Shown piece by piece: positions 7,947-38,313 of a DNA stretch of 64,000 nucleotides. The stretch comes from Candidatus Wolframiiraptor gerlachensis (GTDB lineage: Archaea > Thermoproteota > Nitrososphaeria_A > Caldarchaeales > Wolframiiraptoraceae): the NCBI GenBank assembly GCA_021323375.2, contig JAJPCT020000023.1, positions 35,803-99,802 on the forward strand, given 5' to 3'. The position numbers and the translations under genes were made by a program. The notes under the pieces are model-generated. The model was given only the letters and a program-made list of their open reading frames with translations. It made no database searches and was not told the DNA's origin. Within the stretch, counting starts at the first letter, position 1; every line of letters starts with the position of its first letter.

Positions 7947-10499
7947 CTATTGAGCCTCCATCCTCGCAGAGGCTCTGACCCTTTTAATGATTATTCTCAG
8001 GATTACCGGTATTGCTATCACGGCTGCCAGCGCTGACACGAGTATTATGAAATCTTGGAATGAGAGTATGAGGCCGAGGAGGTTTAAGGCCTCAAGCTCT
8101 ATTATAGCGGTCTCTCCTGGGCGGATGATCCTGCTCATCTTTAGCGGGCCATGCCAGACCTCCAGCTGATACACGCCAAGATATGGTATCCCTGAGAATA
8201 CTACAACTCCATCAGGGCCCGATCTCCCCTCACCTAGGATGATGCCTGAGACCTGTAGCCTTGCGGATACTCCGGGGAGCGGGTTCCCGAGCATGTCAAC
8301 CACCTTAATAGCAATCCCCGTCAGCCTAGCCTCAATCTCGATGGGCTCTCCGGCGAATGTAACATTCCCGGAGAATATTGGGATCGTTGCTCCAGGATAG
8401 TATATCTTCAGGCTATAGTTCGCGAAAGGCATTAGGCTGAAGACTATCATGCCCTGCTTATTCGTGAGGCCCTCAGCCTTCAGGCCGGCGGGGCCCATTA
8501 ACACGACCCTAGCATTGGAGACTGGCGCGCCGCCGCTCCAGAATATTCTAAGCACCATATCTTTCACCGGCAGCTCGATCACATTAATGCCCGCAAGCTC
8601 CTCGATGCTCGTATTCAATGAGCGGAGCGGCAGGTTCCGCTCATCCAAGATCACGAGGCTGCATGAGCCGCGTGGAACAAGCTCTATGGCAATCGAATCG
8701 GATTGCCGCCTCACCTCATGCTTATGGCCGGATGGGTCTATGAGGATCCAGAATGCAGAGAATGGCCGCCCATCAGCTGTCTTGAGCTCAATCCTGATAT
8801 TATACACGTCAGCCGTTATGTTCCAAGATCCGGAGCCTGAGACGACTATCCGGTTATCATACACCTCGATACCCTTCCACATTATCTTGACGCGATACTC
8901 TCCTTCTGGGATGCCTGGGAAACTCACATATCCCCAGCGATCAGCCCTAGCCTCAATGCCGCCAAGCATCACCGAGGCGTTGCCGAGCTCAATACCATCC
9001 CTTGAGCATATATGAAGTGTTATCGAGTGCAGGGGTAGCTGGAGCTCCGAGAGCCTCCCCGGCTGGAAGACCCCTGAAGCCTCGGCGCATGTCCTGAATA
9101 CAGGGGAGCAGTTTAACGCATGCACATGATAATAGCCCACTACTACCTGGGTTATGTTCAGAAGACCTGAGCTTGAGTACAGCCTCGTCTCGGGCAGCGC
9201 TCCCCGGGGGTCGAGCACCGTGAAGTTCACGGCTAGTGGTGATCCACCACTATCAACAGCCTGAACAAGCAGATCATCAACCGGGAGAATCAGCTTGAGC
9301 TTGGGCTCCTTGATCTCCGGCGAGATCGTCGGGTGATATCCAATCCAAACACATTCATCTAGAAGCTTTACACCCATCCAGTATGCTTGTAGGGAGTGGT
9401 TTCCATTCGGGACTAGCTGATATAATGTTAAGCCGTTCTCGGTAATCACCTCAACCCCATCCAAGACTATCCTCGCGCCATTCAGCGGCCTCTCCCTCAA
9501 ATCAAGCACCCTAACCTCTACGTTGAAGAGAAGCGTTCTAACACCCTTTGATGCGAGATCATAAGCCGTATGATGGCCTATGTGCACAAGCGGCGACTCC
9601 TGCAAGAAGAGGCTGCTATTCCAGTATACTCTCACCTCATAATCATCCTCCTTAAGCCTGTAGATTCTTATCGTTCCATTATCTGGGGTGATATACTCCC
9701 TGACATCATAATAGTGCATGAGCCTCCTAATCACGACCCTGGCGCCAGAGATCGGGTTTAAGCCATCATAGTCCGTTACCGTGAGGTTAAAGCTCCTATA
9801 GGGCTGGATCTCGAAGGGCCCATGAGTTGGGTAAGCCTCGAGGGTGTAATCTATCCACCCGGGATAATGGACCCTCAGATCCATGACCGGCTTGAGAAGC
9901 CGCTCTTCCGGGTATATGTCCGGTGGAATGAATATGTTGAACTCGAGCACTATGGATGATCCGGGGCTACGTCCGTTAAGTATGTAATCTATGGGGTTGA
10001 AGGCCTTAAGCTCAACATTAGCATCAGCCCTAAATGCCCAATCCCTCCCAGGATACTTCTTCCAAGGGAACCAGAGTAAGACATGATAGAGCTTTATGGA
10101 CTTTCCTTGGCAAGCTTCTTTTATCGTCAGCTTCGCATCAAAGTACACCTGGCCTCCAAAGCCATAAGCATTCTCTATCTTGTAATCATAATCCTTTATC
10201 CAGCCGCTTTCGTTCATCTCCTGAGCCCTCTTCAGGATAAGCTCGAGATACTGCTCAGGGATTCCTTTAAACTCTTTTTCGAAGGGTTTATCCGAGGGCT
10301 GCCTTGAGGAGCAATCCATATTCGTTATGTTTGCTTTCAGCTTCCCCCACTCGCCCATGTACAATTCTGCTGGAATGAGCTCGATTGAGAAGTCCCATGT
10401 TGGCTGCGCGTTTGACGGTGTTATAGCTAGCTGGAGCGCGGAGAGGAGGGAGGATGATACTAGGAGACAGAGGAGGATCATGGAAATGCTGGGGCGCAT
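7947..10499 (-). CDS. Large cell-surface protein with repeated carboxypeptidase-regulatory-like (prealbumin-fold) domains
   Basis: Signal peptide, repeated V.D..G.P...A.V......G units, C-terminal TM anchor followed by basic residues. Confidence 0.75.
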   Translation of the reverse strand: MRPSISMILLCLLVSSSLLSALQLAITPSNAQPTWDFSIELIPAELYMGEWGKLKANITNMDCSSRQPSDKPFEKEFKGIPEQYLELILKRAQEMNESGWIKDYDYKIENAYGFGGQVYFDAKLTIKEACQGKSIKLYHVLLWFPWKKYPGRDWAFRADANVELKAFNPIDYILNGRSPGSSIVLEFNIFIPPDIYPEERLLKPVMDLRVHYPGWIDYTLEAYPTHGPFEIQPYRSFNLTVTDYDGLNPISGARVVIRRLMHYYDVREYITPDNGTIRIYRLKEDDYEVRVYWNSSLFLQESPLVHIGHHTAYDLASKGVRTLLFNVEVRVLDLRERPLNGARIVLDGVEVITENGLTLYQLVPNGNHSLQAYWMGVKLLDECVWIGYHPTISPEIKEPKLKLILPVDDLLVQAVDSGGSPLAVNFTVLDPRGALPETRLYSSSGLLNITQVVVGYYHVHALNCSPVFRTCAEASGVFQPGRLSELQLPLHSITLHICSRDGIELGNASVMLGGIEARADRWGYVSFPGIPEGEYRVKIMWKGIEVYDNRIVVSGSGSWNITADVYNIRIELKTADGRPFSAFWILIDPSGHKHEVRRQSDSIAIELVPRGSCSLVILDERNLPLRSLNTSIEELAGINVIELPVKDMVLRIFWSGGAPVSNARVVLMGPAGLKAEGLTNKQGMIVFSLMPFANYSLKIYYPGATIPIFSGNVTFAGEPIEIEARLTGIAIKVVDMLGNPLPGVSARLQVSGIILGEGRSGPDGVVVFSGIPYLGVYQLEVWHGPLKMSRIIRPGETAIIELEALNLLGLILSFQDFIILVSALAAVIAIPVILRIIIKRVRASARMEAQ

Positions 10500-10554
10500 G
10501 GCCTTCTAACATGAATATAGCGGCTAGAGATAAGCTTAGCAGTCCGGGATTTCT

Positions 10555-10572
10555 CGAGCAAATTTTATATAT
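10555..10572 (+). promoter_or_regulatory. BRE/TATA promoter of the aro leader and operon
   Basis: CGAGCAAA-TTTTATATAT at 10555-10572; predicted TSS about 10594, followed by SD-like AGGGG (10602-10606) and ATG at 10613. Confidence 0.65.
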
Positions 10573-10612
10573 AATCTGCGAGATGATTATCCAAGCGCTC
10601 CAGGGGCGAATA

Positions 10613-10705
10613 ATGATGAACCATGCTGGACATGCTTGCTTGAGCCATTTCAACAGCCTCTGGAGCTACTGGTATTTTGGCTTCTATTATTTTGCCCTGG
10701 CGTAA
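10613..10705 (+). CDS. Putative aro leader peptide MMNHAGHACLSHFNSLWSYWYFGFYYFALA (Trp/Tyr/Phe-rich)
   Basis: 30 codons; 9 of 11 consecutive codons (10661-10693) are W/Y/F; SD-like AGGGG upstream; directly 5' of the shikimate operon. Confidence 0.7.
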   Translation: MMNHAGHACLSHFNSLWSYWYFGFYYFALA

Positions 10706-10839
10706 GGCCAGGGCCCCGTGCATGATTCCTTGGTTCTGGAGGTGTTCTGCATGCCTGGGGTCCACTCTGTAGATCTTCCGGAGTATTGGTTTGGGCTTGA
10801 CGCGCCCATAGTTTACATTCTATGGTTTTTGGGAGGTGA
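10694..10839 (+). promoter_or_regulatory. Attenuator-like set of alternative hairpins ending in hairpin + U5 + SD
   Basis: GCCCTGGC/GCCAGGGC (10694-10714), GGGCCCCGTGCATG/CATGCCTGGGGTCC (10711-10763), ACTCTG/CGGAGT (10764-10784), TGGGC/GCCCA (10792-10808), CCATAG/CTATGG (10806-10825) then TTTTT and GGAGGTGA. Confidence 0.6.
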
Positions 10840-10844
10840 TGGGT

Positions 10845-11639
10845 ATGGTTTGGGGGAAGAGGGTTAGATTAAGTAGGATAATGGAGTCGGGCAAGATGGT
10901 TTGTGTGCCGATGGATCATGGAGTCAGTTCTGGGCCATTGAAGGGCATCGATAGGATAAGGGAGATGATAAGGATGCTGGAGTCTGCTGGTGTTACCGCC
11001 ATACTGATCCATAAGGGGATTATCAAGAGCTTGGATGAGCCCCCGAGGACGGGCTTGATAATGCATGCCTCTGCTAGCACGAGCCTCTCCACCTCGCCGA
11101 ACTGGAAGGTGAGAGTCGCATCCGTCGAGGAGGCCATCAGACTTGGGGCCGACGCCGTCTCAGTCCACGTAAACATCGGGAATAGGGATGAGCAGGATAT
11201 GCTGAGAAAGCTCGGCGCGATCGCTGATGAGTGCGATGCATGGGGAGTCCCATTGATAGCGATGATGTATCCGCGTGGTGAGAATATCAAGGATCCAAAT
11301 GACCCGCAGGTGATAGCTCATATTGCGAGGGTTGGCGCGGAGCTCGGTGCTGACATAGTCAAGGTGCCGATGCCATCCTTCAACCCAGATGATATTCGGG
11401 TGATAACCGAGAGCTGCCCGGTCCCGGTTGTCGCAGCTGGAGGCCCGAAGATGGATGATGACAGAAAGGTTCTGGAGCTCGCGAAGGCCGTCGTGGATGC
11501 TGGTGGAGCCGGCGTCACATTCGGGAGAAACGTCTTCCAGCATGAGAGACCGGATGCTATCGCCAGAGCGCTTAGGGCCGTCGTGATCGAAGGCAAGAGC
11601 GTCGAGGATGCCATGATGATTCTGAGGGAGCGGCGATGA
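10845..11639 (+). CDS. aroA': 2-amino-3,7-dideoxy-D-threo-hept-6-ulosonate (ADH) synthase, class I aldolase fold
   Basis: PMDHG, GADAVSVHVN, MMYPRG, ELGADIVK, GRNVFQ; first gene of the aro operon; SD GGAGGTGA favours the ATG at 10845. Confidence 0.88.
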   Translation: MVWGKRVRLSRIMESGKMVCVPMDHGVSSGPLKGIDRIREMIRMLESAGVTAILIHKGIIKSLDEPPRTGLIMHASASTSLSTSPNWKVRVASVEEAIRLGADAVSVHVNIGNRDEQDMLRKLGAIADECDAWGVPLIAMMYPRGENIKDPNDPQVIAHIARVGAELGADIVKVPMPSFNPDDIRVITESCPVPVVAAGGPKMDDDRKVLELAKAVVDAGGAGVTFGRNVFQHERPDAIARALRAVVIEGKSVEDAMMILRERR

Positions 11640-12670
11640 GAAAGGAGATAATCATCGCGCTATCCAAGCCTGATGAGAGGATCCTCGAGAGAGCGGTTGC
11701 AAGAGGCATCAAGGCGGTCTACATCGATCCTGAAAAGATTCCTCAGAGGTTTCGCGGCAAGGTCGAGGTCTATCATGAGTCCGAGTCAGCTGACTGGAGG
11801 GTTGTCAGGGACTTGTCAAGCATCTCGGAAAATGTTGTTCCCGAGATAGTGCTTAGGGGTCCTGAGGATTATGAGAGGATAATTGCGGCGGCGAGAATGG
11901 GCGCCAAGAGCATTATAGTAAGGGCTGAGGATCTGAGGATAATAGCGCTTGAGAATCTAATAGCTGACTTGGCGCCGCTGGGGACGAGGATTATCGCGGC
12001 CGCGTCGCCGCTTGAGATCGAGACGCTCTCCGGAGTTCTCGAGAAGGGTGTTGATGGCATCATAGTCTCCGTTAACAGTCCGGACGAGGTTGATCTTGTG
12101 GTGGATCAGGTCTTAGCCCCCAGCAGGCTTGAGCTGGGCGAGGCGGAGGTCGTCGAGGTCAGGGATGTTGGGCTGGGCGAGAGGGCATGCATAGATACCA
12201 CGTCAATCCTCAGCGCTGGTGAGGGCATGCTTGTCGGGAGCACGTCAAGCCTGCTAGCCCTCATACATAATGAGAGCCCAGGATCCGCGCTCACGGCTCC
12301 GAGGCCCTTCAGGGTTAATGCTGGTGCGATTCACTCGTATACGCTGGCGCCCGATGGCTCCACCAAGTATCTCTCGGAGCTGAGGGCTGGCGATAGGGTT
12401 CTCATAGTCTCCAAGAGGGGTGCTAGGGTCGTGTCTATCGGAAGGGTGAAGATCGAGCGGAGGCCGCTGCGGCTCATCAGGATCGGGATGGGAGATATTG
12501 AGGGTTCCGTGATAATCCAGAACGCTGAGACGATAATGCTCCTCGCGCCCGATGAGGCGCTTATACCCGCGACCGAGATCAAGCCGGGTGACAGGATCCT
12601 CGCGCATACACCGAAGGTCAAGGCGAGACACTTTGGGAGAGCTGTGGACGAGTTCATAATCGAGAGGTGA
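11636..12670 (+). CDS. aroB': 3-dehydroquinate synthase II
   Basis: GERACIDT, GEGMLVGS, RPFRVNAGAIHSY, KIERRPL, QNAETI, ARHFG. Confidence 0.95.
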   Translation: MRKEIIIALSKPDERILERAVARGIKAVYIDPEKIPQRFRGKVEVYHESESADWRVVRDLSSISENVVPEIVLRGPEDYERIIAAARMGAKSIIVRAEDLRIIALENLIADLAPLGTRIIAAASPLEIETLSGVLEKGVDGIIVSVNSPDEVDLVVDQVLAPSRLELGEAEVVEVRDVGLGERACIDTTSILSAGEGMLVGSTSSLLALIHNESPGSALTAPRPFRVNAGAIHSYTLAPDGSTKYLSELRAGDRVLIVSKRGARVVSIGRVKIERRPLRLIRIGMGDIEGSVIIQNAETIMLLAPDEALIPATEIKPGDRILAHTPKVKARHFGRAVDEFIIER

Positions 12671-36293: not shown

Positions 36294-36874
36294 ATCATTC
36301 CCTCCAAGAAGTTCCTGAGAATCTTGATCCCGCTAGTGGTTAGGATGGATTCGGGGTGGAACTGCACGCCCGCGATCGGCAGACTTCTATGCCTAACCCC
36401 CATGATCTCGCCATCATCGAGCGATCTCGCGGATATTTCGAGGCAGCCTGGCAGGCTCTCCTCATCGGCGACGAGCGAGTGATATCTCCCGGCCACGAAC
36501 GGGTTCTCGAGCCCCTCGAATATCCCCCTCCCATCATGGCTTATGGGGCTTGGCTTGCCATGCACGATCCTCCTCGCCCTAATCACCCTACCGCCAAACG
36601 CGTGGACTATCAGCTGATGGCCCAAGCATACCCCCAATATCGGCGTATCCCGCGAAAATCTCATTATAACATCCTCGCAGACCCCAGTATACTTTTTCTC
36701 TGATGGATGGCCGGGGCCCGGCGAGATTATGATCCTATCAGGATCAATCTCCTCAACCTCATTCAAGGTGATCCTTTTACTTCGCGCGACTATCGCCTCA
36801 GCTCCTAGCCTGCCAACATAGTCGGCGAGATTATAGACGAATGAGTCGAAATTGTCTAAGATTAGGACGCGCAT
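36290..36874 (-). CDS. trpG: Anthranilate synthase component II
   Basis: DNFDSFVYNL, SPGPG, GVCLGHQ, RYHSL, GVQFHPES. Confidence 0.96.
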   Translation of the reverse strand: MRVLILDNFDSFVYNLADYVGRLGAEAIVARSKRITLNEVEEIDPDRIIISPGPGHPSEKKYTGVCEDVIMRFSRDTPILGVCLGHQLIVHAFGGRVIRARRIVHGKPSPISHDGRGIFEGLENPFVAGRYHSLVADEESLPGCLEISARSLDDGEIMGVRHRSLPIAGVQFHPESILTTSGIKILRNFLEGMI

Positions 36875-38268
36875 CTCTCACCAGCCTCCTCTAATGCCCT
36901 CATAAGCGCCATCATCTTATGCTTGGTCTCCTTCCACTCCCGCTCCGGGATTGAGTCCCAGACGATGCCTGCGCCCGCCTGGATATAGGCTAGGCGCGAT
37001 CTCCTGATCAGAGTCCTTATTGTGATCGCAAAGTCACAGCAGCTATTCAGCGAGAAGTATCCAATCGCCCCTGCATATGGGCCTCTCCTGACGGGCTCGA
37101 GCTCCTCTATTACCTCCATCGCCCTAGGCTTTGGCGCCCCCGAGACTGTTCCAGCCGGGAAGACGGCCTTGAAGGCATCATACATCGTGGCTCCACCTCT
37201 CAGCCTTGCCTTAACCCTTGAGACGATGTGCTTAACGTGGCTATACTTGACTAGGGTCATGAAGTCCTTCACCTCGACTGATCCGGGCTCCGCGATCTTA
37301 GCGAGATCATTCCTAGCGAGATCGACGAGCATAACATGTTCCGCCCTCTCCTTCTCATCGGAGAGAAGCTCGTGGTCGGATTCCTCCTCCAACCTCGGAT
37401 CATTCATCCTCGGCCTAGTCCCGGCTATTGGGAACGTCTCAACCCTGACGCCCTCAACCCTAACCAGCATCTCGGGGCTCGCTCCAACAATCTCATCATC
37501 CCCGAGCCTGAAATAATACATGTAAGGTGATGGATTAAGATCGCGAAGCCTGAGATAGAATGGGAGCAGGTCGCCCTTGATCTCGAACTCGAGCCTCCGT
37601 GAGAGAACTACTTGGAAAATGTCGCCGCGCTCGATATACTTCTTTCCAGCCTCCACGATGCCCATGAACTCGTCCATGCTCATATTGCTCCTCGGGCTGG
37701 TGTATCTGAGACGATGATTGGCGGATGGTGGCCCAGCATCTTTTAGAACCCTCTTGACATTATCCAGCCTGCCATCTCCAGCGCATGAGCAGTAATAATA
37801 CGTCCTCCTCCCATGATCATAGATCAGCACATCCTCGAATAAGCCGAACTTCATGAGCGGGAAGATATTGCTTGGCTTCTCGCGCGATCGGATATCCTCC
37901 CAGAGGAATGAGGCCTCATACGAGACATAGCCTACAAGGCCACCGACAAAGCGGGGCGAGGAAGGGGCGCCCGCGATCGGCCGGGTTAGGCTTCTCAGCA
38001 GATCTAGTGGATCACCCTCTACTTCGCTAACAGAACCATGCTCATGAATTCTCGAGAACCCCTCATAACACTCGATGATGAGCTTGGGGTCGAAGCCGAT
38101 GAAGCTGTATTCAGCGAGCCTCTTGGGGCCTGTTAGAGATTCCAAGAGAAAGGCATCCCGCCAAGCAGCCCTTATGGCCCCGAAAACCTGGAGGGGGGTA
38201 AGCCCAAGATCAAGCCTTATAAGCCTAAGCCGTCTCTCAGCATGATATTCAGAGCCAAAGATAGCCAC
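36862..38268 (-). CDS. trpE: Anthranilate synthase component I (N-terminus possibly supplied by +1 frameshift from the uORF at 38275)
   Basis: FLLES, GDIFQVVLS, NPSPY, PIAGTR, KERAEH.MLVDLARND, FPAGTVSGAPK, QAGAGIV. Confidence 0.96.
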   Translation of the reverse strand: MAIFGSEYHAERRLRLIRLDLGLTPLQVFGAIRAAWRDAFLLESLTGPKRLAEYSFIGFDPKLIIECYEGFSRIHEHGSVSEVEGDPLDLLRSLTRPIAGAPSSPRFVGGLVGYVSYEASFLWEDIRSREKPSNIFPLMKFGLFEDVLIYDHGRRTYYYCSCAGDGRLDNVKRVLKDAGPPSANHRLRYTSPRSNMSMDEFMGIVEAGKKYIERGDIFQVVLSRRLEFEIKGDLLPFYLRLRDLNPSPYMYYFRLGDDEIVGASPEMLVRVEGVRVETFPIAGTRPRMNDPRLEEESDHELLSDEKERAEHVMLVDLARNDLAKIAEPGSVEVKDFMTLVKYSHVKHIVSRVKARLRGGATMYDAFKAVFPAGTVSGAPKPRAMEVIEELEPVRRGPYAGAIGYFSLNSCCDFAITIRTLIRRSRLAYIQAGAGIVWDSIPEREWKETKHKMMALMRALEEAGERCAS

Positions 38269-38275
38269 CGTTCAT
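38249..38275 (-). CDS. Leaderless uORF MNGGYLWL overlapping the trpE start; candidate Trp-sensing +1 frameshift cassette
   Basis: ATG AAC GGT GGC TAT CTT TGG CTC TGA; the A of ATG lies 30 nt after the first T of TTTATATT; the +1 frame at CTT-TGG (TTT GGC TCT GAA) is trpE. Confidence 0.6.
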   Translation of the reverse strand: MNGGYLWL

Positions 38276-38313
38276 GCAAGATATGCATTAGTGCATAAAT
38301 ATAAACTTTGGTG
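38275..38313 (-). promoter_or_regulatory. trp operon promoter (BRE + TATA) with TGCA repeats between TATA and TSS
   Basis: CACCAAAG-TTTATATTTAT (TATA 38305-38295); TGCA at 38275, 38284 and 38292, including the inverted repeat ATGCA-N4-TGCAT. Confidence 0.7.

What the first reader, a model, noticed from the sequence alone, without database searches (positions are those of the whole stretch)
10694..10839. Chain of mutually exclusive hairpins linking the leader stop codon to a U5 tract and the aroA' SD
Seen: hairpin 1, GCCCTGGC-GTAAG-GCCAGGGC, carries the leader stop codon in its loop. Its 3' arm overlaps hairpin 2 (10711-10724 with 10750-10763, 13 of 14 pairs including G-U). Hairpin 3 is ACTCTG/CGGAGT (10764-10784). 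TGGGC/GCCCA (10792-10808) competes with CCATAG/CTATGG (10806-10825), which is followed directly by TTTTT and the SD GGAGGTGA. CCCA (10805-10808) could also pair with TGGG (10830-10833) and mask the SD. Inference: ribosome position could select between terminator/SD-sequestering and antiterminator folds. How the signal would relay from hairpins 1-2 to the distal pair is not obvious by eye.
Basis: partly seen in the sequence, partly recalled or inferred. Interest (0 to 1): 0.75.

Follow-up and report, generated by a model that had tools for sequence, protein, structure and literature searches.

The report
Archaeal aromatic-leader switch and relay ORF
Ahead of an archaeon's aromatic amino-acid genes lies a tiny Trp/Tyr/Phe-rich reading frame that ends inside a conserved RNA hairpin, followed by a second small reading frame that runs into the first enzyme gene; together they look like a ribosome-operated switch of a kind so far described only in bacteria.

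Summary
Hairpin 1 (10694-10714, leader stop codon in its loop) is real. It is invariant in 17/17 genus sequences and stays paired through compensatory changes in two sister genera. Hairpin 2 shares 4 nt with it. Only its 7-bp base (GGGCCCC/GGGGTCC) is conserved, in 14-17 of 17. The distal hairpins, the U5 tract and the SD-masking pair are lineage-specific or no better than slid controls. Whole-region folding energy is ordinary (z about -1).

It stays open into the aroA' start in 16/17 sequences across six length classes. It is probably the relic 5' end of an aspartokinase gene that follows the same leader in sister genera. Aromatic-rich leaders head this operon in further genera and in 18/18 genomes of a second family.

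Best reading: a ribosome-position switch (hairpin 1 versus hairpin 2) gates initiation of the relay ORF, which passes the decision to aroA'. The sign of the switch and the step that locks it are inferred, not shown.

The parts
10564..10571 (+). TATA-like box TTTATATA. The predicted transcript start is about 10593-10595 (inferred from spacing).
   Evidence: Invariant columns T10 T11 A12 T13 T15 A16 of alignment A1. It aligns with TTTAATTA in the sister genera.
10597..10607 (+). 5' arm of helix P0 (GCTCCAGGGGC). It overlaps the SD-like AGGGGCGA (10602-10609) of the leader ORF.
   Evidence: Inverted repeat I2, 11 nt, 91% complementary. 97.3% of cells pair in 25 sequences of three genera, with one-sided changes only.
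10613..10705 (+). Leader ORF (uORF1), MMNHAGHACLSHFNSLWSYWYFGFYYFALA*. It has 10 aromatic codons: F13, then nine between W17 and F27.
   Evidence: The C-terminal part is conserved in 17/17 genus sequences while the N-terminal part varies. A homologous ...FWSY.YF[AT]LA* is found in genera g2 and g5.
10656..10666 (+). 3' arm of helix P0 (GCCTCTGGAGC, codons 15-18 including W17).
10694..10714 (+). Hairpin 1: 8 bp, loop GTAAG holding the leader stop TAA 10703-05. Its 5' arm starts directly after the last aromatic codon.
   Evidence: The stop lies in the loop in every one of the 26 family sequences listed.
10711..10763 (+). Hairpin 2: arms 10711-10724 / 10750-10763. The conserved core is GGGCCCC 10711-17 with GGGGTCC 10757-63. 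The 3' arm covers ATG 10751 and codons 2-5 of uORF2.
   Evidence: It forms in constrained folds when the 5' arm of hairpin 1 is covered, in 14 of 17 genus sequences.
10738..10744 (+). SD2 GGAGGTG, 6 nt upstream of ATG 10751.
   Evidence: It is complementary to the 16S 3' end GGATCACCTCCT of this genome. It is conserved in A1.
10751..10867 (+). uORF2 (38 codons, MPGVHSVDLPEYWFGLDAPIVYILWFLGGDGYGLGEEG*). It is in the +1 frame relative to aroA' and ends 21-23 nt after the A of the aroA' ATG. It is probably a relic of the aspartokinase 5' end.
   Evidence: 1 stop in this frame against 41 and 32 in the other two frames across 17 sequences, and the ATG2-ATG3 distances 85, 88, 94, 100, 112 and 121 all equal 1 mod 3. 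Searches give the homology with the ask start.
10764..10784 (+). Hairpin 3, ACTCTG/CGGAGT. It is weak and lies inside uORF2.
   Evidence: 83.3% of cells pair. One pair is compensated in 2 sequences; the top pair is broken in 13/17.
10792..10830 (+). TGGGC/GCCCA, CCATAG/CTATGG and T5 (10826-30). These are lineage-specific elements inside uORF2.
10832..10839 (+). SD3 GGAGGTGA of aroA'.
10845..11639 (+). aroA' (2-amino-3,7-dideoxy-D-threo-hept-6-ulosonate synthase). The likely start is ATG 10845 (MVWGK). It is followed by aroB', aroD and aroE.
   Evidence: NCBIfam NF005556 at 326 bits and TIGR01949 at 304 bits. ATGGTTTGGGG is conserved.

Best explanation
The stretch is the 3' half of a leader-peptide attenuator of the aro operon of a Caldarchaeales archaeon. 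The genus is Ca. Wolframiiraptor, judged from the titles of matching records.

The parts. A 30-codon leader (10613-10705) carries ten Trp/Tyr/Phe codons. The last of them abuts the 5' arm of hairpin 1, and the stop codon lies in the hairpin loop.

Proposed OFF path. When aromatic tRNAs are charged, the ribosome runs to the end of the leader and covers the 5' arm of hairpin 1. The freed 3' arm, plus the CCCC behind it, then pairs with GGGGTCC just after ATG 10751 (hairpin 2). This hides the start of a second ORF as it emerges from the polymerase.

Proposed ON path. When an aromatic tRNA is scarce, the ribosome is held at the first hungry aromatic codon (F13, W17 or Y19, all at least 8 codons upstream of the arm). 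The arm stays free, hairpin 1 forms, and SD2/ATG2 stay open. Ribosomes then translate uORF2 across the 94-nt gap and finish 4-8 codons inside aroA'. There they re-start at SD3/ATG 10845, or keep the polymerase covered.

One-shot timing. A 5' helix (10597-10607 with 10656-10666) closes the leader's own ribosome site once the first ribosome has passed. This makes the decision one-shot and co-transcriptional.

Shown versus inferred. Shown: the elements, their conservation, and the hairpin 1 / hairpin 2 competition in folding. Inferred: the direction of the switch, the coupling to aroA', and what locks the OFF state (an uncoupled polymerase ended at oligo-T or by FttA).

On the confidence figure. 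0.4 is for this specific mechanism. I put the broader claim, that this is a genuine ribosome-sensed regulatory leader centred on hairpin 1, at about 0.8.
For: (1) The leader ORF, with its aromatic run, is conserved. It occurs in 9/9 genus loci with usable upstream DNA and in 17 distinct sequences. A homologous leader occurs in g2 (3/3) and g5 (6/8). Different aromatic leaders head the same operon in 18/18 genomes of family f2, in 2 examined g3 genomes and in 1 g11 genome.

(2) Hairpin 1: 99.5% of cells pair across 25 sequences, and two pairs carry compensatory changes. The stop lies in the loop, and the 5' arm starts directly after the last aromatic codon, in all 26 listed sequences. The same geometry is seen in the unrelated f2 leaders (read by eye).

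(3) Constrained folds. Hairpin 1 is on with an early stall and off with the ribosome at the stop in 25/26. Hairpin 2 probability rises from 0.1-0.4 to 0.6-1.0 in 14/17 genus sequences when the 5' arm is masked. Accessibility of start 2 falls by more than 0.05 in 14/17 with the ribosome on the last Phe codon, and in 7/17 with the ribosome at the stop.

(4) uORF2 is kept open. There is 1 stop in its frame against 41 and 32 in the other frames. Six length classes all equal 1 mod 3. The chance of an open frame, per sequence, is 0.10-0.31 on shuffled composition.

(5) ATG2 sits where the aspartokinase gene starts after the homologous leader in g2 and g5. Identity to the G017 ask start is 39/61-63, z 2.9-4.4. 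It is therefore the ancestral regulated start.

(6) There is an independent parallel. In 2 of 3 g14 genomes, a 15-17-codon ORF beginning MSI/MSR follows the leader and ends in an ATGA overlap with asd.

(7) Every one of the 26 leaders has at least one W, one Y and one F codon upstream of the two codons that would mask the arm (peptides listed).

(8) In the passages read, review PMC13681488 says that archaeal elongation complexes are ended by oligo(dT) tracts or by FttA. It adds that factor-dependent termination probably needs uncoupling of translation from transcription.
Against: - The effect on the second start is modest. Comparing early stall with ribosome at the stop, SD2 plus start is more open in 9 of 26 sequences, less open in 4, and unchanged in 13.
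- At 70 C hairpin 1 outcompetes hairpin 2 at equilibrium (0.96 against 0.11 in the window). An unshown kinetic lock is therefore required.
- The GGGCCCC:GGGGTCC pairing is genus-specific. It fails in 3 of 17 genus sequences (G008, G003, mg052). In g2 and g5 the freed 3' arm finds only weak, non-covarying partners.
- GGGGT after ATG2 is also simply the inherited Ser-Gly-Val coding sequence of ask.
- A ribosome stalled on the last two aromatic codons would give the 'wrong' (OFF-like) fold.
- T5 tracts, as a possible lock, occur in 13/17 genus sequences but in only 1/9 of g2/g5.
- With no leader translation at all, the model predicts ON, unlike classical attenuators.
- There is no expression data of any kind.
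Confidence: 0.4

Rival explanations
1. Transcription attenuation of the bacterial kind. Hairpin 1, together with the U-rich spacer behind it, pauses or ends the polymerase. A ribosome stalled on the last aromatic codons covers the 5' arm and lets transcription continue into the operon.
For: - There is zero spacing between the last aromatic codon and the 5' arm in all 26 family sequences, and the same geometry in the f2 leaders.
- Helix P0 hides the leader's own SD, which fits a one-shot co-transcriptional decision.
- The spacer is U-rich, with a T5+ run somewhere between hairpin 1 and ATG3 in 13/17 genus sequences against a 14.5% baseline.
- T5+ runs are about 6-fold enriched behind ORFs in this genome.
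Against: - The window itself has no T run between hairpin 1 and SD2, and only 1 of 9 g2/g5 sequences has a T5.
- Where T runs exist, they lie 10-18 nt behind the stem rather than directly after it.
- Hairpin-plus-T sites are not enriched in the window.
- Archaeal intrinsic termination is described as depending on oligo(dT) (PMC13681488, passages).
- The stop codon in the loop means a terminating ribosome also blocks the hairpin.
- This reading does not explain why SD2, ATG2 and the open frame of uORF2 are preserved, nor the ATGA-coupled relic ORF in g14.
Confidence: 0.2
2. uORF2 is an inhibitory overlapping uORF (ATF4-like, ribosome occlusion). Ribosomes translating it run over SD3 and ATG 10845 out of frame and block aroA' initiation. 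Starvation stalls the leader ribosome on the last Tyr/Phe codons, hairpin 2 hides ATG 10751, uORF2 falls silent, and the strong SD3 is freed.
For: - The folds give this sign directly. With the ribosome on the last Phe codon, start-2 accessibility falls in 14/17 genus sequences, while SD3 and ATG3 stay accessible.
- SD3 is strong and well spaced.
- The overlap is out of frame and 14-23 nt long.
- Ribosomal occlusion of a main RBS by a uORF is proposed in a bacterium (PMC13285730, abstract).
Against: - ATG2 is the start of the biosynthetic aspartokinase gene in the sister genera. There it must be switched on, not off, in starvation.
- The relic ORF in g14 ends in an ATGA overlap, the classical positive coupling signal (PMC6728339, listing only).
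- Under severe starvation the ribosome should stop at the first hungry codon, not the last.
Confidence: 0.12
3. The leader encodes an arrest peptide (as TnaC or the fungal arginine attenuator peptide do). The aromatic cluster in the exit tunnel senses free aromatic amino acids and holds the ribosome at the stop codon. That keeps hairpin 1 open and hairpin 2 closed, so the operon is OFF when the amino acids are plentiful.
For: - The C-terminal peptide FWSY.YF[AT]LA is conserved across three genera.
- In all leader types the aromatic cluster ends 2-4 residues before the stop.
- This reading gives the right feedback sign with the folds as computed.
Against: - The peptide conservation is accounted for by the RNA arms that the same codons encode: F/L-W-S is the P0 3' arm and A/T-L-A is the hairpin 1 5' arm.
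- Leaders of different families share only their aromatic composition, not their sequence. That is the hallmark of codon-level sensing.
Confidence: 0.08
4. There is no regulation by the hairpins. The region is a deletion scar (relic ask 5' end and asd 3' end) and the pairings are by-products of G/C-rich SD-like and anti-SD-like words.
For: - Folding energy is ordinary.
- Much of the conserved sequence after ATG2 is inherited coding sequence.
- Many elements are low-complexity GGAGG/CCTCC-like words that pair promiscuously in folds.
Against: - The arms are invariant at synonymous sites while the N-terminal leader codons vary freely.
- Hairpin 1 carries compensatory changes.
- The uORF2 frame is conserved across six length classes.
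- Aromatic leaders recur at this operon in two families with different sequences.
Confidence: 0.08

Closest known systems
Leader-peptide transcription attenuators of bacterial amino-acid operons (E. coli trpL, pheL, hisL; recalled, not read here)
   Same: A short leader ORF is enriched in codons of the end-product amino acids. Overlapping alternative helices are selected by where the leader ribosome sits. In the proposed mapping, the hairpin 1 5' arm is segment 2, its 3' arm is segment 3, and the region after ATG2 is segment 4. A ribosome at the leader's end favours 3:4.
   Different: The host is an archaeon. No GC hairpin is followed directly by a U run. The effector helix hides a translation start rather than forming a terminator. 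The leader's own SD is closed by a 5' helix. The stop codon lies inside the anti-sequestor hairpin. One leader carries W, Y and F codons for the common pathway. The output passes through a second ORF.
Polycysteine leaderless sORF attenuators of mycobacteria (bioRxiv 10.1101/834739; abstract read)
   Same: Amino-acid-responsive control acts at the level of translation. [quoted passage not shown]
   Different: There, the stalled ribosome directly blocks the sequestering duplex. Here the stalled ribosome is proposed to leave an anti-sequestor hairpin intact. Here the leader has an SD and a 5' UTR helix, and a relay ORF is interposed.
Translational attenuation of ermC/cat (recalled)
   Same: A leader ribosome decides which of two overlapping hairpins forms, and thereby whether a downstream SD/start is exposed.
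   Different: The trigger there is an antibiotic-dependent nascent-peptide arrest, not tRNA supply, and no second ORF is involved.
Translational coupling by termination-reinitiation in archaea and bacteria (PMC6728339 and PMC10666635; search listing and titles only)
   Same: An upstream ORF ends at or just past the start of the next gene. The g14 relic ORF shows the canonical ATGA overlap with asd.
   Different: In the window the overlap is 14-23 nt rather than 1-4 nt, and aroA' has a strong SD of its own. Coupling is inferred only from frame conservation.
Inhibitory overlapping uORFs (eukaryotic ATF4/GCN4, recalled) and uRBS occlusion in Sinorhizobium meliloti (PMC13285730; abstract read)
   Same: There are two uORFs in series, and the second overlaps the main start out of frame.
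   Different: Initiation here is SD-driven, not by scanning. The ancestral role of ATG2, as the start of ask, argues for a positive relay rather than an inhibitory one.

Membership tests
Leader-peptide transcription attenuator (trp/phe/his type) | Short leader ORF enriched in codons of the regulated amino acid(s), directly upstream of the biosynthetic operon | tested here: met
   10 of 30 codons are W/Y/F, upstream of aroA'B'DE. The leader is conserved.
Leader-peptide transcription attenuator (trp/phe/his type) | Overlapping, mutually exclusive helices whose choice depends on ribosome position | tested here: met
   Hairpins 1 and 2 share 10711-10714. Constrained folds switch between them in 14/17 genus sequences.
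Leader-peptide transcription attenuator (trp/phe/his type) | Intrinsic terminator (GC stem followed at once by a U run) as the effector helix | tested here: not met
   No U run follows hairpin 1 or hairpin 2 in the window. T5 is absent from the spacer in the window and in 8/9 g2/g5 sequences. The only terminator-like site (10806-10830) is lineage-specific, and such sites are not enriched.
Leader-peptide transcription attenuator (trp/phe/his type) | Premature 3' ends and amino-acid-dependent read-through | not testable with these tools
   No RNA run was listed for this DNA.
Translational attenuation (ermC type; mycobacterial Cys sORF) | The SD/start of the downstream ORF lies in one of the alternative helices | tested here: met
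   In the window, ATG 10751 and codons 2-5 form the 3' arm of hairpin 2. Across the genus only codons 2-5 (GGGGTCC) are consistently paired.
Translational attenuation (ermC type; mycobacterial Cys sORF) | Stalling exposes the downstream start | tested here: inconclusive
   Early stall against ribosome at the stop: the start is more open in 9, less open in 4, and unchanged in 13 of 26. A stall on the last Phe codon hides the start in 14/17 genus sequences.
Termination-reinitiation coupling | The stop of the upstream ORF overlaps, or lies within a few nt of, the downstream start | tested here: inconclusive
   The uORF2 stop lies at +12 to +14 in 12/17 sequences, at +21 to +23 in 4/17, and 8 nt before the ATG in 1/17. 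These overlaps are longer than the canonical 1-4 nt. A true ATGA overlap is seen only in g14.
Any Rfam family | Covariance-model match | tested here: not met
   No match in 10500-10900, even at E up to 10.
Nascent-peptide arrest sensors (TnaC, AAP) | Conserved peptide whose sequence, not its codons, is required, with ligand-dependent arrest | not testable with these tools
   The peptide is conserved, but the same codons form the RNA arms. Leaders of other families differ in sequence.

The most novel reading that the evidence does not exclude
This would be the first ribosome-mediated amino-acid attenuator seen in Archaea, and it is not a one-off. Aromatic-codon leaders head the aspartokinase-asd-aroA' operon across the order Caldarchaeales in at least four architectures. 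In Wolframiiraptor, the regulated start of a deleted aspartokinase gene survives as a dedicated relay ORF. That ORF carries the ribosome's decision over 94 nt into aroA'. In short, it is a sensor uORF plus a relay uORF built from a gene relic.
Probability: 0.55. Interest if true: 0.9.

Novelty: new variant of a known kind. Interest (0 to 1): 0.78.

Why it matters
Leader-peptide attenuation is a textbook bacterial mechanism. My searches of the held library found no paper describing it in an archaeon.

Archaea end transcription at oligo(dT) tracts or with FttA rather than at hairpin terminators (PMC13681488, passages read). An archaeal version therefore has to solve the output step differently.

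This locus offers a concrete, mutable test case:
- a sensor ORF for all three aromatic amino acids on the common pathway;
- a hairpin with covariation support;
- a relay ORF whose only conserved property is that it stays open.

The comparative series also shows how such a switch is rewired when genes are lost. The series runs from ask-first operons, through asd-first operons with a different leader, to relic ORFs in two independent lineages. It would make archaeal transcription-translation coupling and polarity directly testable on a natural regulator.

Tried and rejected
- Rfam scan of 9500-12000 at E up to 10: only chance-level snoRNA/lncRNA hits, none in the leader.
- RNA evidence: no RNA holder was listed for 10500-11500.
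- Stop-codon read-through or frameshift joining the leader to uORF2 (a lead taken from the earlier trpE note): rejected. The distance from the leader stop to ATG2 is 0, 1 or 2 mod 3 in different species, and the other frames close early.
- Alternative helix between the 5' UTR and the hairpin 1 5' arm (inverted repeat I1, 15 nt, 80%): rejected. Its AU half is confined to the window's lineage. When the hairpin 1 arm changes (CTGG to CTAG), the compensating change is in the 3' arm of hairpin 1, not in the 5' UTR.
- Masking of the aroA' SD by CCCA/TGGG, or by any state: SD3 and ATG3 accessibility did not respond to ribosome position. The pair scores close to slid controls.
- A downstream anti-SD within ask that a stall would release: extending the fold window to +170 nt gave no consistent release.
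- Genome-wide scan for other amino-acid-run leader ORFs: 251 candidates, too noisy to use.
- Further copies of the conserved blocks in the genome: none.
- A leader upstream of the genome's other ask-asd pair (contig C16): none seen.
Of 120 loci, most were unrelated hairpins, and 10 passed my motif filter. More variants must exist.
- Family f3 (3 genomes) was looked at, but its AT-rich DNA gives many spurious aromatic sORFs, so I draw no conclusion.
Full report
**What is in the window.** The window region 10500-10844 is a 345-nt gap. On one side is a divergent 850-codon ORF (7947-10499, minus strand, no NCBIfam hit). On the other is the first gene of an aromatic amino-acid operon: aroA' (ADH synthase, 326 bits to NF005556), aroB' (3-dehydroquinate synthase II), aroD and aroE. 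The genome is a 1.28-Mb, 27-contig assembly. Titles of public records holding near-identical leaders name Candidatus Wolframiiraptor and 'uncultured Nitrososphaeria archaeon'. PMC9246946 (abstract) describes that genus as anaerobic thermophiles of the Caldarchaeales. I therefore folded RNA at 70 C as well as at 37 C.

**The observation.** Taken as a whole the region is not unusually structured. MFE z-scores against 200 dinucleotide shuffles are -1.02 for 10690-10850 and -0.89 for 10590-10860, and Rfam finds nothing. The case for function has to come from comparison.

**Comparison within the genus.**
- The aroA' protein found homologues in 35 of 41 related genomes.
- In all 9 genus loci with usable upstream DNA, the same small ORF precedes aroA'. 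Its N-terminus varies and its C-terminus is conserved and aromatic...LWSYWYFGFYYFALA*.
- No such ORF lay within 450 nt upstream in the 21 loci of other genera. There aroA' directly follows another gene, shown to be asd.
- An exact-pattern scan for hairpin 1 hit 10 of 14 genus genomes. Of the four misses, three have no aroA' match at all and one has only aroA' fragments.
- A capped metagenome scan added 10 loci that passed my motif filter, out of 120 returned.
- This gave 17 distinct sequences, aligned as A1.

**Hairpin by hairpin (A1, 17 sequences).**
- Hairpin 1 is invariant in 17/17. Its loop varies in length (3-5 nt) and always holds the stop codon.
- Hairpin 2 keeps its 7 basal pairs (GGGCCCC with GGGGTCC) in 14-17 of 17. 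Its upper half is poorly kept, and 82.9% of cells pair overall.
- Hairpin 3 pairs in 83.3% of cells, with one compensated pair in 2 sequences and the top pair broken in 13/17.
- TGGGC/GCCCA pairs in 79.7%.
- CCATAG/CTATGG exists in only 10 of 17 sequences.
- CCCA/TGGG scores 77.4%, against 55-63% for slid controls.
- The T5 before the aroA' SD is present in four sequences only.
- Hairpin-plus-T sites are at or below chance in 40 kb of the window: 8 against 15.5, and 12 against 11.6.

The proximal part of the chain is therefore conserved, and the distal 'terminator / SD-masking' part is not.

- An 11-nt helix, P0, pairs the very 5' end of the predicted transcript with leader codons 15-18. The 5' arm is 10597-10607 and contains the leader's SD-like AGGGGCGA. 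The 3' arm is 10656-10666. It is kept in 16/17 genus sequences. The exception, mg154, has a different 5' half and a shorter aromatic leader.
- A second ORF. SD2 (GGAGGTG, 10738-44) matches the 16S 3' end GGATCACCTCCT. It sits 6 nt before ATG 10751. The frame from there stays open past the aroA' ATG.
  - Over 17 sequences this frame has 1 stop, against 41 and 32 in the other two frames.
  - The ATG2-to-ATG3 distance takes six values (85, 88, 94, 100, 112, 121), all equal to 1 mod 3.
  - The one exception (G002, 95 nt) differs by one T in a T run. Its two near-identical metagenome relatives keep the frame.
  - The per-sequence chance of an open frame, on shuffled composition, is 0.10-0.31.
  - The ORF ends at TAA 12-14 nt after the A of the aroA' ATG in 12/17 sequences, at TAG 21-23 nt after it in 4/17 (including the window), and at TGA inside SD3 in 1/17.
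  - Only the first 6-7 residues of the peptide (MxGVHS) are conserved.

**Beyond the genus.** This changed my reading. I fetched DNA farther upstream in other genera. It shows a homologous leader...F[FY]..FWSY.YF[AT]LA*, with the same P0 and the same hairpin 1. It lies about 35-40 nt before an aspartokinase gene that heads an operon ask-asd-aroA'. A pattern scan finds it in g2 (3/3), g5 (6/8) and the genus itself (9/13 plus the window), and in none of 7 g3 or 3 g4 genomes.

On 25 sequences from three genera (A2):
- P0 pairs in 97.3% of cells, with one-sided changes only.
- Hairpin 1 pairs in 99.5% of cells. Two pairs changed on both sides: G-C to A-U in one sequence, and G-C to A-U in three sequences with a G-U intermediate in a fourth.
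- Slid controls pair in 29-58%.

This is modest but real covariation support for hairpin 1.

MAFFT puts SD2 and ATG2 of the genus in the same columns as the SD and start of ask. The window's ATG2 region shares 39 of 61 aligned positions with the G017 ask start (z 4.4 against shuffles). Other pairs give z 2.0-3.3, and z of about 0 against G021. I conclude, as an inference, that uORF2 is the relic 5' end of ask, left when ask and asd were lost from this operon. The genome keeps another ask-asd pair on contig C16, without a leader.

**Other leader architectures.**
- In family f2 the operon starts with asd. All 18 of 18 genomes with an aroA' hit have a different aromatic-rich small ORF (core T[TA]Y.YF[FY]) ending 35-80 nt upstream of asd.
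- There too the last aromatic codon is followed at once by the 5' arm of a hairpin whose loop holds the stop. A G-rich stretch at the leader's ribosome site is complementary to a C-rich tract behind the hairpin (read by eye, not counted).
- In 2 of 3 g14 genomes a 15-17-codon ORF starting MSI/MSR follows that leader and ends in an ATGA overlap with the asd start. This is an independent case of a relay ORF.
- Two g3 genomes and one g11 genome have further variants.
- Five g8 loci showed none.

**Mechanism: what the folds say.** I masked a ribosome footprint (A-site -15 to +8 or +12) and computed pairing probabilities.
- When the 5' arm of hairpin 1 is covered, hairpin 2 rises to 0.6-1.0 in 14 of 17 genus sequences. 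The exceptions are G008, G003 and mg052.
- Accessibility of ATG2 -1..+12 falls by more than 0.05 in 14/17 with the ribosome on the last Phe codon, and in 7/17 with the ribosome at the stop. In the window it falls from 0.49 to 0.20 and 0.28 respectively.
- SD3 and ATG3 do not respond.
- In g2 and g5 the freed strands find weaker, non-conserved partners at SD2.
- Over all 26 sequences, SD2 plus start is more open with an early stall than with the ribosome at the stop in 9, less open in 4, and the same in 13.

**Mechanism: the sign.** If 'ribosome on the arm' meant starvation, the regulated start would be hidden in starvation. That cannot be right for ask. The classical trp logic resolves this. 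A ribosome that reaches the end of the leader (sufficiency) covers the arm, which plays the part of segment 2, and so favours the sequestor (3:4, here hairpin 2). A ribosome held at the first hungry codon leaves the arm free for the anti-sequestor (2:3, here hairpin 1). All 26 leaders have at least one W, one Y and one F codon upstream of the two arm-masking codons. In the window these are F13, W17 and Y19.

At 70 C hairpin 1 wins at equilibrium (0.96 against 0.11), and P0 closes the leader's SD after the first ribosome. The decision must therefore be taken co-transcriptionally and then locked. I infer the lock as follows: a polymerase that gets no ribosome on uORF2 is ended, at the T5 at 10826-30 in this lineage or by FttA. 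Review PMC13681488 (passages) states that archaeal complexes end at oligo(dT) tracts or by FttA, and that factor-dependent termination probably needs uncoupling. T5+ runs are rare inside ORFs of this genome (0.21 per kb) and enriched behind them (8% of 60-nt 3' flanks against 1.3% expected). They are not conserved in the leaders of g2 and g5, however (1/9). The lock is the weakest link in this model.

**Rivals.**
- A bacterial-type terminator reading of hairpin 1 explains the arm-codon juxtaposition. It fits poorly with the missing U runs, with the stop lying in the loop, and with the preserved relay ORF.
- An inhibitory (occluding) uORF2 fits the folds as computed. It conflicts with ATG2 being the ancestral start of ask and with the ATGA relic in g14.
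- An arrest-peptide reading gives the right sign without a lock. But the peptide conservation is explained by the RNA arms, and leaders of other families share only their composition.
- Read-through or frameshift fusion, and an alternative 5' UTR:arm helix, were tested and rejected.

**Literature.** Three full-text searches for archaeal leader-peptide or ribosome-mediated attenuation returned bacterial papers and general reviews only. I read only the listings, apart from the abstracts and passages named above. Supplements were not consulted.

**Verdict.** The proximal observation (leader stop in a hairpin that competes with a second hairpin) is confirmed and is part of a conserved regulatory leader. 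The distal chain to the U5 tract and the aroA' SD is not. The link is a relay ORF derived from a lost gene. The element as a whole is a new, archaeal variant of leader-peptide attenuation. Its output step remains to be shown.

Noticed in passing
L016, L017, L019-L021, L220-L234 (family f2 loci; about 1100-1200 nt upstream of aroA'): A different aromatic-rich leader ORF lies upstream of asd in 18/18 f2 genomes. Examples are MSRGRGVGRS..TTTYAYFFGP..*, ..FTAYTYFYFWEG* and ..TYAYFYAW..*. It has a stop-in-loop hairpin, and a G-rich leader ribosome site complementary to a C-rich tract behind the hairpin.
   Followed up: partly
L231 and L234 (genus g14), about 1090 nt upstream of aroA': A second small ORF (MSRNILNFGVRCMLCVG*, MSIVNVWCFRRRCDS*) has its own GAGGTG SD and ends in an ATGA overlap with the asd start. 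It looks like an independent relic of the ask 5' end used as a relay. The third g14 genome (L233) has only a 4-codon ORF.
   Followed up: partly
L237 (G015) and L241 (G019), genus g3: A variant leader (..FFMAGYSWYCYSQPDASL* and ..TTGYRYYRYSEPDASL*). Its Tyr/Trp codons lie inside a roughly 13-bp hairpin. The leader SD region (AGAGAGGCG) pairs with the last leader codons (CGCCTCTCT). Two T5 runs and a CTTCTCC anti-SD-like word follow before the ask SD.
   Followed up: no
L154 / L129 (metagenome variants of the window's own lineage): The 5' half of the leader region is replaced by unrelated sequence, with no P0. The leader is shortened to MHIKQQNWYFCLYYFALA*. From the last aromatic codons onward it is nearly identical to the window.
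   Followed up: no
window 10809-10811: A TAG triplet is invariant in all 17 genus sequences and always in the aroA' frame, 9-12 codons or more upstream of the ATG. A second, nearly invariant TAG lies at 10770-10772 (TCTATAG). No explanation was found. They may be inherited from ask/asd sequence or may bar upstream in-frame starts.
   Followed up: no
window 36862-38268 (minus strand) and 38249-38305: An earlier scan note (e1-6909775) reports a tiny ORF with a Trp codon, one base out of frame, ahead of trpE in this same window. If real, this genome has two different ribosome-based sensors for aromatic amino acids.
   Followed up: no
window 7947-10499 (minus strand): The divergent 850-codon ORF has an N-terminal signal-like segment and a C-terminal hydrophobic segment, and no NCBIfam match. 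It shares the 345-nt intergenic region with the leader.
   Followed up: no
G000 contig C16: 59079-62184 (minus strand): The genome's only clear ask and asd genes lie together on another contig, with an ordinary promoter/SD region and no leader ORF.
   Followed up: partly
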